Below, in pieces: positions 1 to 5,057 of a DNA stretch of 64,000 nt; the stretch's first letter is position 1, and each line of letters begins with the position of its first letter. The translations under genes and the position numbers were made by a program. Location: sequence record ON184125; one strand, given 5' to 3'. This DNA comes from Escherichia phage PC3. The notes under the pieces were generated by a model. It did no database searches. It was not told where the DNA came from and saw only the letters and a program-made list of their open reading frames with translations.

Positions 1-9
1 CCAGAGTTA

Positions 10-1875
10 ATGTCGGACGCCAAATTTATTCAAACTGAAGATGACTACAAAGACTTCATCCGTGAATATTTCTATATGAAGAATGGCAACCTGAATTACC
101 AACTACTATCTTCACCCCTGTTGTCATCTTACCTTGGCGTAGACCCCCTCAAATATGCCAACCAGCACAACTCTGAAGAATCCGTGAACACCCGTGTATT
201 GGTCTGGTTACACGACGTCAAACCAACACCTTGTATCACCTGCGGTGCTAGAACTTCTGTCGAGATTAAGAAGTCTATCCCATCCTACCGGAAATATTGT
301 TCGGAGGAATGCTATGCCCAATCAATGAAGTTGGGTGGTGAAGCCCGTAAAGTCTTGGACAAGACAATACTGGACAAATATGGCGTGGAAAACGTGTTCC
401 AGGATGAATCCATAAAAGGGAAGGCACGGTTGACCATGCTGCAGCGTTTCGGCGTAGAACACATTATGCAGTCTGAAGAGGGGCGGCAGCTATTCAGAGA
501 TTCCGTTATGGAAAAATATGGGGTTGAGCACCCGATGCAGTTGGAAGAGATCAAACGGCGCGCATGGGATACCCTCGGTGCTCGGTCTTGGTATGCTACT
601 TCAGAAGGTAAAGCTGCGCGGGAGAAGGCATTTGGTGGATACCAAGGCGGTCATCCGATGCGTGACAGGGGTGTTATAGAGAAGATAATCTCAAACAATC
701 TCAAGCGGTATGGTGTTGAATGGCCTGCTCAAGACCCTGTTATCAAAGCTAAAGTTGTAGACACCATGTTGGAAAAATATGGTGTGTCCCACCCATTACA
801 AATACCAGAAGTGAAAGCCAGAGTCAAACAAAGTCACCAAACAAAGTACGGTAGATTCTATTTCAATAGACATGAGGTTATGTTATTGGCTTCGGAACGT
901 TCTAAAGAGACATGTGTTAGAAAATATGGTGTACCATATGCGTTGCAGAACAAATCCATGTGGGAACACATTACGTCATCCCTTAATTCGAAATCAAAAC
1001 CAGAAATAGAAATATCTGATTGGCTCACTTCAATGGGGGTTGCCCACAAATGCTCCGACTTCACCCTCCTAAACAATATGAATTGCCAGGACGGTGGAAC
1101 TCGACGCCAGATAGACATCTATTGCCCAGAACACAAACTGGCAATAGAATTTAATGGCCTGTATTGGCACAGTGAGATACACAAATATCGCCGTTATCAT
1201 CTCGAAAAGACAGAGGCATGTGAAGCACAAGGCGTTCAGCTGATACACATCTGGGAAGATGAGTGGCATAACAACCCAGAGATCGTGAAAGGGTTGCTGG
1301 CTGCCAAACTCGGGATCAAGAAGCCATCCGGGTACGCCCGTCAGTGTTATGTAGAGGAAGGTAAGAAGTCGGATATTCTAGAACTCCTGGCCTCTCAACA
1401 CATACAGGGCACCATTCATTCGGCCACGCATTACCTTCTCCTCAGAGATAAGAGAGACAACCGGGTTCGGGCTGTCATGACCTTTATCAAACGTGTGGTG
1501 AAGGGGGAACAGTGTATGGAACTTACGAGGTTTGCCTCCGACGGCATTCACGGGGCGTTCTCTAAACTGCTGGCGTACTACAAGGAACATCTCTGGGATG
1601 GCGTGAAGACTTTCTCCTTTGGCGATAGGTGTGTTGTTAGTCGGTTGTCCAACATTTACCTTTCTCACGGGTTCGTCGAGGAAGAAATACAAGACCCGGA
1701 TTACAAATATCACAAACCAGGGACTCTCATGCGGGAGCACAAGTTTGGATTCAGAAAGGCAGACTTTGCTCAGATGGGCTATGACGTAGAAGGTAAGACA
1801 GAAGATCAGTTAGCAACCGAAGCCGGGCTGGTCAGGATTTGGAATTGTGGACTGATCAAATATGTCTTGAACTAA
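10..1875 (+). CDS. Putative homing-type endonuclease: N-terminal tandem repeats plus C-terminal PD-(D/E)xK (DUF559/Vsr-like) nuclease domain
   Basis: 621-aa ORF; about 7 tandem ~33-aa repeats with KYGV-x-x-P-x-Q motif; C-terminal IDIYCPEHKLAIEFNGLYWHS...IHIWEDEW resembles restriction-endonuclease-like fold; no in-frame stop between window start and ATG at 10, so the 5' end may lie upstream. Confidence 0.5.
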   Translation: MSDAKFIQTEDDYKDFIREYFYMKNGNLNYQLLSSPLLSSYLGVDPLKYANQHNSEESVNTRVLVWLHDVKPTPCITCGARTSVEIKKSIPSYRKYCSEECYAQSMKLGGEARKVLDKTILDKYGVENVFQDESIKGKARLTMLQRFGVEHIMQSEEGRQLFRDSVMEKYGVEHPMQLEEIKRRAWDTLGARSWYATSEGKAAREKAFGGYQGGHPMRDRGVIEKIISNNLKRYGVEWPAQDPVIKAKVVDTMLEKYGVSHPLQIPEVKARVKQSHQTKYGRFYFNRHEVMLLASERSKETCVRKYGVPYALQNKSMWEHITSSLNSKSKPEIEISDWLTSMGVAHKCSDFTLLNNMNCQDGGTRRQIDIYCPEHKLAIEFNGLYWHSEIHKYRRYHLEKTEACEAQGVQLIHIWEDEWHNNPEIVKGLLAAKLGIKKPSGYARQCYVEEGKKSDILELLASQHIQGTIHSATHYLLLRDKRDNRVRAVMTFIKRVVKGEQCMELTRFASDGIHGAFSKLLAYYKEHLWDGVKTFSFGDRCVVSRLSNIYLSHGFVEEEIQDPDYKYHKPGTLMREHKFGFRKADFAQMGYDVEGKTEDQLATEAGLVRIWNCGLIKYVLN

Positions 1876-1883
1876 AAGAACAT

Positions 1884-1920
1884 TTCAATAACGGGGCGAG
1901 AGGTATTATTGCCCCGTCTA
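1884..1920. repeat. Copy 1 of a ~37-bp stem-loop element (ttcaataacggggcgagaggtattattgccccgtcta)
   Basis: GC stem acggggc/gccccgt with 13-nt loop; near-identical copy at 2145-2181; positions approximate. Confidence 0.5.
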
Positions 1921-1938
1921 TTAATCGAGGAAATCGCA

Positions 1939-4331: not shown

Positions 4332-5057
4332 AACGCACAGATCTATGACGCCCTATCACAGGGCAACGCCTTTACCAATCCTCTCCCGTCCCTCAGCAGC
4401 GCCTCACAGGGGTTAATCACCAGCGGTAAGGCGACTACAGAGTCACTGGCTAACACCGGAAATGCGCAGATTCAGGAAGCGCTGACGGCAGGTGGGTTGA
4501 CTACAGCCAAACTCAACGAATCTACAGCAATGTTCAACTCAGCCAACAACAGCATCACTACTTTGAACAACTATGGCGACCAGTCAGTGAAAGAGGCATA
4601 TTCCCGCATCGGTACATCTGTGTCGTATAAGTCCGCCCTGAAGTCTATAGGTCGAGAACCGAACAACTGTGATCTGATCAATAATGCATTTGGGGTTATT
4701 CAGAACCTCGGCAAACAGTGGATCAACACCATGCAAAGTGTTCTCACAACTATCACAAACAAGATGAATGAGCTGGCTGAGTTGGTAGCTCAGGGCGTCG
4801 GTGCTGGTCTTGATGCTATTCAGGCACTGGCTGCTGAAGTTACTCAGGCCATCGACACTGCTGTCGCATCAGTAGCCTCTATTGCTCAGGACATCACGAA
4901 CGGTATTGCAGCAGAGTTAGCCCATATCCAAGACATGGTTGGTAAGTGTCTTAACTTCTCTTTTGCCAACGTGATCTCAGAGTGGGCGAAAGATATCTGC
5001 GCCGGAGGTGTCATCAACAGCATTGGTTCCGATAATCTGAAGAACGCACTGAAGTAA
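4329..5057 (+). CDS. Hypothetical protein (242 aa), Ser/Thr/Ala/Asn-rich, likely late gene
   Basis: ORF 4287-5057 trimmed to ATG directly after hairpin cassette; no enzymatic motif. Confidence 0.45.
   Translation: MNAQIYDALSQGNAFTNPLPSLSSASQGLITSGKATTESLANTGNAQIQEALTAGGLTTAKLNESTAMFNSANNSITTLNNYGDQSVKEAYSRIGTSVSYKSALKSIGREPNNCDLINNAFGVIQNLGKQWINTMQSVLTTITNKMNELAELVAQGVGAGLDAIQALAAEVTQAIDTAVASVASIAQDITNGIAAELAHIQDMVGKCLNFSFANVISEWAKDICAGGVINSIGSDNLKNALK

What the first reader, a model, noticed from the sequence alone, without database searches (positions are those of the whole stretch)
10..1875. Large nuclease with about seven tandem KYGV-x-x-P-x-Q repeats and a PD-(D/E)xK (DUF559-like) domain
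The architecture is unusual: an N-terminal Cys-containing region, about seven tandem ~33-aa repeats (plausibly a modular DNA-binding array), a restriction-endonuclease-fold domain (AIEFNGLYWHS ... IHIWEDEW) and a further C-terminal domain. It is probably a homing or site-specific endonuclease with a repeat-encoded recognition module. The gene may start upstream of the window.
Basis: partly seen in the sequence, partly recalled or inferred. Interest (0 to 1): 0.5.

Follow-up and report, generated by a model that had tools for sequence, protein, structure and literature searches.

The report
Hef-type phage homing endonuclease gene
This is a selfish "homing endonuclease" gene of a known, very common phage family, sitting just after the major capsid gene of Escherichia phage PH4; its one under-appreciated feature is a C-terminal domain related to the DNA-modifying enzyme Mom of phage Mu.

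Summary
The ORF and its repeats are real, but details need correcting. The window is Escherichia phage PH4 (Ackermannviridae). The gene starts 123 nt upstream of window position 10, giving 662 aa rather than 621. It has seven clear KYGV repeats plus two degenerate units, with a 23-aa period, not ~33.

Domain order:
- two CxxC…CxxxC zinc fingers and a small helical domain
- the 23-aa helical repeat array (Pfam DUF7487)
- a GNAT-fold domain

It belongs to the Hef-like free-standing homing endonucleases (PHROG 3339, E 4e-152; 51% identical to F-LimVII). The locus after gp23 is polymorphic. Ag3 has no endonuclease there, and other phages carry shorter alleles with 1-2 repeats.

The architecture is common: the nuclease+GNAT module has 13,022 cluster representatives at E≤1e-10. 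Repeat number ranges from 1 to 16 in the 115 of 120 listed homologs with a hit. The repeats also occur with GIY-YIG and classical PD-(D/E)xK nucleases, which supports but does not prove a modular DNA-binding role.

New angle: the GNAT domain is Mom-family (profile-profile E 8e-8), and five of Mom's seven active-site residues are conserved or invariant. I found no paper describing this.

Verdict: new member of a known kind; moderate interest.

The parts
1..1875 (+). In-window part of the homing endonuclease ORF. The true ATG lies 123 nt upstream of window position 10, outside the window. The full protein is 662 aa; the stop codon is at 1873-1875.
10..219 (+). Small all-helical N-terminal domain (aa 1-70 of the 621-aa numbering). 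Function unknown; no structural match.
226..324 (+). Second zinc-finger-like motif, C75-x2-C78-x18-C97-x3-C101 ('YCSEEC'). The first finger lies in the 41 aa upstream of the window.
   Evidence: (C75, C78, C101 at least 90% conserved); weak L24e-type match
370..984 (+). Array of 23-aa helical repeats (Pfam DUF7487). Seven clear units are at nt 370-438, 439-507, 508-576, 700-768, 769-837, 838-906 and 916-984. Two degenerate units lie at 577-699. Each unit is a ~15-residue helix plus a KYGVxxPxQ connector.
985..1326 (+). Vsr-like (EDxHD-related) nuclease domain. Conserved residues: E332, D369, E380, N382, H387, H397, K400.
1327..1872 (+). Mom-family GNAT-fold C-terminal domain. H464, R507, S518, D539 and Y550 align with Mu Mom H58, R111, S124, D149 and Y159.

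Best explanation
The ORF is a free-standing homing endonuclease gene of the Hef type, carried as an autonomous cassette immediately downstream of the major capsid gene (gp23) of Escherichia phage PH4.

Proposed mechanism (inferred):
1. During mixed infection with a related phage that lacks the gene, the protein binds a long DNA site through its N-terminal zinc fingers and its array of nine 23-aa basic helical repeats.
2. The Vsr-like nuclease domain cuts nearby, probably as a dimer as in I-Bth0305I.
3. Recombinational repair from the PH4 copy transfers the gene and flanking markers.

The C-terminal Mom-like GNAT domain forms a compact unit with the nuclease. It most likely contributes to substrate DNA handling: base flipping or recognition, or possibly modification.

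Shown here: domain identities, family membership, conservation of catalytic residues, locus polymorphism, and variability of repeat number.

Inferred: cleavage, target location, DNA binding by the repeats, and the role of the GNAT domain.
For: Family:
- PHROG 3339 'homing endonuclease', E 4e-152.
- 51% identity to F-LimVII and 39% to F-LimIII of Dickeya phages.
- The LIMEstone1 paper classes these as Hef-like and places F-LimVII next to gp23 (PMC3296691).
- Hef of phage U5 is described as an endonuclease cleaving nrdB (PMC2988022).
- Taylor et al. place Hef-type enzymes in the Vsr-like family of I-Bth0305I (PMC3239194).

Nuclease:
- The family profile hits the I-Bth0305I catalytic domain 3r3p at E 7e-7.
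- D369, H387, H397 and K400 are invariant in 121 sequences. E380 is conserved in 120/121 and E332 in 106/121.

Mobility signature:
- Of 264 phage records matching the flanks, only PH4 and A221 carry this allele.
- Ag3 has two small ORFs (~760 bp) where PH4 has ~2,110 bp. RPN242 and fGh-Ecl02 carry 490-aa and 508-aa alleles at the same spot.
- The cassette has its own terminator and sigma-70-like promoter just upstream of the start.
- The family is multi-copy in many phages: 1,089 places in 426 records.

Repeats:
- Copy number ranges from 1 to 16 in the 115 of 120 listed homologs with a hit.
- The same repeats are fused to SegE-like GIY-YIG, T5orf172/MUG113 and classical PD-(D/E)xK nucleases.
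- The repeat region has pI 9.5, with K3, K16, K18, K20, T22 and Q11 conserved in each unit.
Against: - No cleavage, binding or homing was measured for this protein or any close relative here. The Sandegren 2005 paper on Hef itself could not be read.
- The identity profile between PH4 and the endonuclease-less Ag3 shows no special divergence next to the cassette, so the target site cannot be inferred.
- The last Asp of the EDxHD motif is not conserved as such (position 399 is N/E/D).
- The repeat array has no structural counterpart in the PDB and no match to NUMOD models, so DNA binding rests on context only.
- The gene replaces other DNA in Ag3 rather than being a clean insertion.
Confidence: 0.8

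Rival explanations
1. The protein is a nuclease coupled to an active Mom-like DNA-modifying domain. The GNAT domain would modify adenine, Mom-style, using an aminoacyl-tRNA or acyl donor. It would act at or near the enzyme's own target, so the carrier genome is protected while unmodified relatives are cut. This would be a single-chain restriction-modification-like homing system.
For: - The C-terminal-domain family profile against the Mu Mom family profile gives Prob 94.5%, E 8e-8 over 139 columns. Controls with reversed or shuffled profiles give E no better than 0.048.
- Pfam Mom hits homolog P0020 above the gathering score (E 7e-8) and 8 of 75 members at E<=0.01.
- Mom H58, R111, S124, D149 and Y159 align to residues conserved in 121, 121, 104, 117 and 121 of 121 sequences.
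- R111 and S124 are essential in Mom (PMC13219725).
Against: - Mom Y59 and the essential R151 are not conserved.
- The PH4 sequence itself does not reach the Pfam Mom model or PHROG 1384.
- The T4-like relative RPN226 has N in place of the D149 equivalent.
- Conserved pocket residues could serve binding rather than catalysis.
- No modified adenine is known to me in Ackermannviridae DNA (own knowledge).
Confidence: 0.15
2. The gene is a domesticated or exclusion nuclease rather than a homing element. It would degrade or nick competitor or host DNA (marker exclusion, inter-phage competition) without promoting its own spread.
For: - The cassette replaces other genes rather than inserting cleanly.
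- No co-conversion footprint is visible.
- Alleles are mosaic: the 3' 1.1 kb is 98% identical between PH4 and fGh-Ecl02 while the 5' part is ~70%. This suggests selection and recombination acting on the gene itself.
Against: - Sporadic distribution at a conserved locus, many paralogs per genome and an intact catalytic set are the usual signature of mobile endonuclease genes.
- Marker exclusion and homing are mechanistically the same event in T-even phages (PMC2988022).
Confidence: 0.1
3. The gene is a decaying, inactive remnant of a homing endonuclease.
For: - Two of the nine repeat units are degenerate.
- The deposited annotation has a shortened start.
Against: - The 662-aa frame is intact and 99.3% identical at DNA level in A221.
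- All family-invariant residues of both the nuclease and the GNAT domain are present.
- AF2 confidence is very high.
Confidence: 0.03

Closest known systems
Hef (phage U5) and Hef-like F-LimVII / F-LimIII / F-LimX of Dickeya phage LIMEstone1
   Same: Same family: PHROG 3339, and 39-51% identity to F-LimIII and F-LimVII. All are free-standing and intergenic. F-LimVII also lies next to the major capsid gene. They share the zinc finger, KYGV repeats, Vsr-like nuclease and C-terminal GNAT domain.
   Different: The PH4 allele is the long form, with 7 clear plus 2 degenerate repeats against 1-2 in F-LimVII-type alleles. Only the last ~260 bp are shared at DNA level with RPN242. U5 Hef sits in the nrd region and was not compared directly.
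I-Bth0305I (PDB 3r3p), prototype of the 'EDxHD' Vsr-like homing endonucleases
   Same: Same nuclease fold and equivalent residues: E170/E332, D196/D369, E206/E380, N208/N382, H213/H387. The DNA-binding part is N-terminal and the nuclease follows it.
   Different: I-Bth0305I is intron-encoded, 266 aa, uses two NUMOD2/HTH motifs and has no GNAT domain. Its D222 has no strictly conserved Asp counterpart here; H397 and K400 are invariant instead.
Mom of phage Mu (PDB 8bv8), a Gly-tRNA-dependent adenine-N6 DNA modifier
   Same: GNAT fold, profile-level homology, and conservation of H58, R111, S124, D149 and Y159 equivalents.
   Different: Mom is a stand-alone 241-aa enzyme. Here the domain is fused after a nuclease. 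Y59 and R151 equivalents are not conserved, and activity is unknown.
NUMOD modules of I-TevI / I-HmuI-type phage endonucleases
   Same: Short, repeated, basic helical modules attached to several unrelated nuclease domains. The SEExKxKI-like pattern resembles NUMOD3; that resemblance is from memory and was not tested.
   Different: No HMMER match to NUMOD Pfam models in 75 family members at E<=0.01. The period is 23 aa, and arrays reach 16 units.

Membership tests
Hef-type / Vsr-like (EDxHD) homing endonucleases | Vsr-like variant of the restriction-endonuclease fold | tested here: met
Hef-type / Vsr-like (EDxHD) homing endonucleases | Sequence homology to characterised or named members | tested here: met
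   Family profile vs 3r3p E 7e-7; PHROG 3339 E 4e-152; 51% identity to F-LimVII
Hef-type / Vsr-like (EDxHD) homing endonucleases | Composite catalytic motif E-D-x-H-D | tested here: inconclusive
   E332 (106/121), D369 (121/121) and H387 (121/121) are present. The position aligned near D222 is variable (N/E/D), while H397 and K400 are invariant.
Hef-type / Vsr-like (EDxHD) homing endonucleases | Sporadic presence at a conserved genomic site (mobility signature) | tested here: met
   Only 2 of 264 flank-matching phage records carry this allele. Ag3 lacks any endonuclease there, and other alleles occupy the same site.
Hef-type / Vsr-like (EDxHD) homing endonucleases | Site-specific double-strand cleavage and gene conversion | not testable with these tools
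   Needs cleavage assays and phage crosses
(D/E)-x-K catalytic triad | tested here: not met
   The strand motif is E380-F-N382 (ExN, as in I-Bth0305I E206/N208), with His387 as the Vsr-type general-base equivalent. The fold superfamily is shared, but the motif is not.
Pfam DUF7487 | Score above the gathering threshold | tested here: met
   109.8 bits against a cutoff of 27, E 2.5e-31. Only profile positions 1-97 (the repeat part) are matched.
Mom family (Pfam PF25680) | GNAT fold | tested here: met
Mom family (Pfam PF25680) | Own sequence reaches the Pfam Mom model | tested here: not met
   No Mom hit for the PH4 protein at E<=1 and none to PHROG 1384. Homolog P0020 does reach it (32.8 bits against a cutoff of 27.1), and 8 of 75 members hit at E<=0.01.
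Mom family (Pfam PF25680) | Profile-profile homology to Mu Mom and relatives | tested here: met
   hhalign Prob 94.5%, E 8e-8, 139 columns. Reversed and shuffled controls give E no better than 0.048.
Mom family (Pfam PF25680) | Active-site residues H58, Y59, R111, S124, D149, R151, Y159 | tested here: inconclusive
   Five of seven are conserved (H464, R507, S518, D539, Y550). The Y59 position is I/L and the R151 position is variable.
Mom family (Pfam PF25680) | Modification of adenine in dsDNA | not testable with these tools
   Needs nucleoside LC-MS
NUMOD DNA-binding modules | Match to the NUMOD1 or NUMOD3 models | tested here: not met
   No NUMOD family appears in the 25 most-matched of the 44 Pfam families hit by the 75 members at E<=0.01 (the rest were not shown). 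There is a single NUMOD1 hit, E 0.29, on a separate HTH in P0118.
TALE-like one-repeat-one-base arrays | One or two hypervariable specificity positions in an otherwise constant repeat | tested here: not met
   In 445 unique units, variability is spread over positions 8-10, 12-13, 19, 21 and 23

The most novel reading that the evidence does not exclude
The Mom-like GNAT domain, fused to the nuclease in this very large family of homing endonucleases, is catalytically active on DNA. It would install a Mom-type adenine adduct from an aminoacyl-tRNA or acyl donor at or near the cleavage site, giving the carrier genome self-immunity or marking the target. Homing endonucleases of this family would then be combined cut-and-modify enzymes. 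In addition, the 23-aa DUF7487 repeat would be a new class of modular DNA-binding repeat.
Probability: 0.15. Interest if true: 0.8.

Novelty: new member of a known kind. Interest (0 to 1): 0.4.

Why it matters
The gene itself is an ordinary member of a known selfish-gene family and is already labelled 'homing endonuclease' in GenBank.

What could matter is at family level. The nuclease+GNAT module is extremely abundant (13,022 cluster representatives at E≤1e-10), yet two of its parts are uncharacterised.

- The 23-aa DUF7487 repeat has no solved structural counterpart. It is attached to at least four kinds of nuclease domain, which makes it a candidate new modular DNA-binding array.
- The C-terminal domain proves to be a relative of Mu Mom with most of Mom's active site preserved. 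Mom was only recently shown to be a tRNA-dependent DNA aminoacyltransferase.

If either part does what its relatives suggest, the family would offer programmable-length DNA binders or a nuclease with a built-in DNA-modifying activity.

Tried and rejected
- Paralogs: tblastn of the full protein against the window found no second copy.
- Target-site inference: the PH4 vs Ag3 identity profile shows ~91% identity throughout, with no footprint next to the cassette.
- NUMOD relationship: no HMMER support. A profile-profile test against NUMOD3 was not run because no NUMOD3 alignment was available.
- TALE-like code: rejected on the per-position variability.
- Defence-system membership: PADLOC gives only a weak 'HEase' hit, E 4.6e-4.
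- NCBIfam gives only a sub-threshold Vsr hit.
- Literature: Sandegren et al. 2005 (Hef) is not held. There are no papers on DUF7487. I found none describing a Mom-like domain in Hef-type enzymes.
- There are no tRNA genes in the window.

Full report
**Source and gene limits**

The first 4 kb of the window are 100% identical to Escherichia phage PH4 (ON184126.1, 32001-36000; Ackermannviridae, Aglimvirinae). The ORF at window 10..1875 (+) is PH4_000025, annotated 'homing endonuclease'. It lies directly after the gp23 major head gene.

The reading frame is open to window base 1. In the source genome an ATG 123 nt further upstream adds 41 residues (MIHICRTCKTSF...YCSVDCRTFY...). The homologs P0003, P0010, P0011 and P0013 all share this N-terminal CxxC...CSxxC finger. 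Phage A221 annotates the 662-aa form, and protein cluster P0001 (99% identical) is 662 aa. The real product is therefore 662 aa, and the deposited 621-aa start is too short.

A hairpin terminator (L001 4808-4831) and a sigma-70-like promoter (TTGAAA-18-TAAAAT, 4836-4865) sit between gp23 and this start. The gene thus looks like a self-contained cassette.

**The repeats**

Seven matches to [KR][YF]G[VR]x4[QR] start at aa 123, 146, 169, 233, 256, 279 and 305 (621-aa numbering). No shuffle out of 20,000 gave more than one match. The spacing is 23 aa (once 26), not ~33. The 64-aa gap between copies 3 and 4 holds two degenerate units.

Pfam places the region in DUF7487 (E 2.5e-31). From 445 distinct units in 120 homologs the consensus is LEKYGVENPLQSEEIKEKIKQTN. 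K3, Y4, G5, V6, E7, Q11, K16, K18, K20 and T22 are conserved. Variation is spread over many positions, so there is no TALE-like hypervariable pair. The repeat region has pI 9.5.

Copy number ranges from 1 to 16 in the 115 of 120 listed homologs with a hit. Close alleles differ mainly in copy number: P0002 scores 5 repeats, P0003 scores 2, and F-LimVII-type proteins score 1 by the model, although a second, weaker unit is visible in their sequences.

A search with the repeat region alone recovers ~1,800 proteins. In these the repeats are joined to other nucleases:
- a classical PD-(D/E)xK module ('VDIF...CIEVKS'; P0139, P0121)
- a SegE-like GIY-YIG domain (P0190)
- a T5orf172/MUG113 domain (P0207)

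. This nuclease-associated, modular distribution is the main argument for DNA binding. It remains an inference.

**The nuclease**

I mapped residues using the published roles in I-Bth0305I (PMC3239194):

| I-Bth0305I | This protein | Conservation in 121 homologs |
|---|---|---|
| E170 | E332 | 106/121 |
| D196 | D369 | 121/121 |
| E206 | E380 | 120/121 |
| N208 | N382 | 103 N, 16 D |
| H213 | H387 | 121/121 |

The region aligned with D222 has invariant H397 and K400 but a variable residue at 399. This is a Vsr-type active site, not a canonical D...(D/E)xK.

**The C-terminal domain**

A profile of the domain from 121 family members, aligned against a profile of Mu Mom and its relatives, gives Prob 94.5% and E 8e-8 over 139 columns. 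Reversed and column-shuffled controls give E no better than 0.048.

Mom active-site residues align as follows:

| Mu Mom | This protein | Conservation in 121 homologs |
|---|---|---|
| H58 | H464 | 121/121 |
| R111 | R507 | 121/121 |
| S124 | S518 | 104/121 |
| D149 | D539 | 117/121 |
| Y159 | Y550 | 121/121 |

Y59 and R151 are not conserved. In Mom, R111 and S124 are essential. The enzyme transfers glycine from Gly-tRNA to N6 of adenine in dsDNA (PMC13219725).

I found no paper that describes this domain in Hef-type endonucleases, but the searchable library is incomplete.

**Family and mobility**

PHROG 3339 'homing endonuclease' matches at E 4e-152. Named relatives are F-LimVII (51% identity), F-LimIII and F-LimX of Dickeya phages, and 'Hef' of Campylobacter phages. 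The LIMEstone1 paper classes these as Hef-like and places F-LimVII beside gp23. Hef of phage U5 is cited as an endonuclease cleaving nrdB.

Occupancy of the site after gp23 varies among relatives:

| Phage | What lies after gp23 |
|---|---|
| PH4, A221 | the 662-aa allele; the only 2 of 264 records matching the flanks that carry it |
| Ag3 | ~760 bp with two small ORFs, where PH4 has ~2,110 bp |
| RPN242 | a 490-aa allele sharing only the last ~260 bp at DNA level |
| fGh-Ecl02 | a 508-aa allele; 3' 1.1 kb 98% identical, 5' part ~70% |

The fGh-Ecl02 comparison points to a recombination junction at the repeat array. A T4-like phage (RPN226) carries a 503-aa relative between gp24 and gp23.

The nuclease+GNAT module is very common. 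It has 18,120 cluster representatives at E≤1e-3, 13,022 at ≤1e-10 and 1,327 at ≤1e-30. All of the top 150 span both domains. The architecture is therefore not unusual.

**Mechanism**

Most likely this is a free-standing homing endonuclease. The zinc fingers and repeat array would give long, mostly backbone-directed DNA contacts. The Vsr-like domain would cut, probably as a dimer as in I-Bth0305I. Recombinational repair would then copy the cassette into relatives that lack it.

None of this was measured. The target cannot be deduced, because divergence from Ag3 is uniform (~91%) on both sides of the cassette.

The GNAT domain is packed against the nuclease (pTM 0.90). Its preserved Mom-like pocket argues for a retained ligand- or base-binding function. 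Whether it modifies DNA is open; I put that at about 0.15.

**Verdict**

The interpretation as a homing endonuclease is well supported by family membership and locus polymorphism. The gene is a new member of a known kind.

Interest is moderate. It rests on two family-level points: an uncharacterised 23-aa nuclease-associated repeat, and an apparently undescribed Mom-like domain with a largely intact active site.

Noticed in passing
upstream of window 1 (ON184126.1 31887-32009; L001 4887-5009): The GenBank CDS for PH4_000025 starts 41 codons too late. The longer frame encodes a conserved CxxC...CxxxC finger present in all close homologs, and phage A221 annotates it as 662 aa.
   Followed up: yes
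window 1883-1930 and 2144-2191: A 48-nt direct repeat (92% identical, 261 nt apart) contains a GGGGC...GCCCC hairpin and lies immediately upstream of two small genes. Copies are also present in related phages (Ag3, RPN242). It may be a regulatory or terminator element.
   Followed up: partly
L007 2575-4086 (Escherichia phage RPN226, Tequatrovirus): A 503-aa relative with the same zinc finger, repeat, Vsr-like and GNAT architecture sits between the gp24 and gp23 capsid genes of a T4-like phage. Hef-like genes therefore neighbour the major capsid gene in two phage families. Its D149-equivalent is N.
   Followed up: partly
L005 3272-4798 vs L001 4887-6875: The endonuclease alleles are mosaic. PH4 and fGh-Ecl02 share the 3' 1.1 kb at 98% identity, but the 5' part is ~70% identical and five repeats are missing. 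This implies recombination within or next to the repeat array.
   Followed up: partly
proteins P0139, P0121: The Pfam DUF7487 model (220 positions) appears to combine about five KYGV repeats with a C-terminal classical PD-(D/E)xK nuclease module (VDIF...CIEVKS). So the 'DUF' is itself a repeat-plus-nuclease family.
   Followed up: partly
window 985-1872 (PHROG 559 match): PHROG 559 is labelled 'HNH endonuclease', but it matches the Vsr-like plus GNAT region here. The label looks like a misnomer.
   Followed up: no
L001 4808-4865 (upstream of the window): A strong hairpin terminator after gp23 is followed at once by a 10/12 sigma-70-like promoter in front of the endonuclease gene.
   Followed up: no
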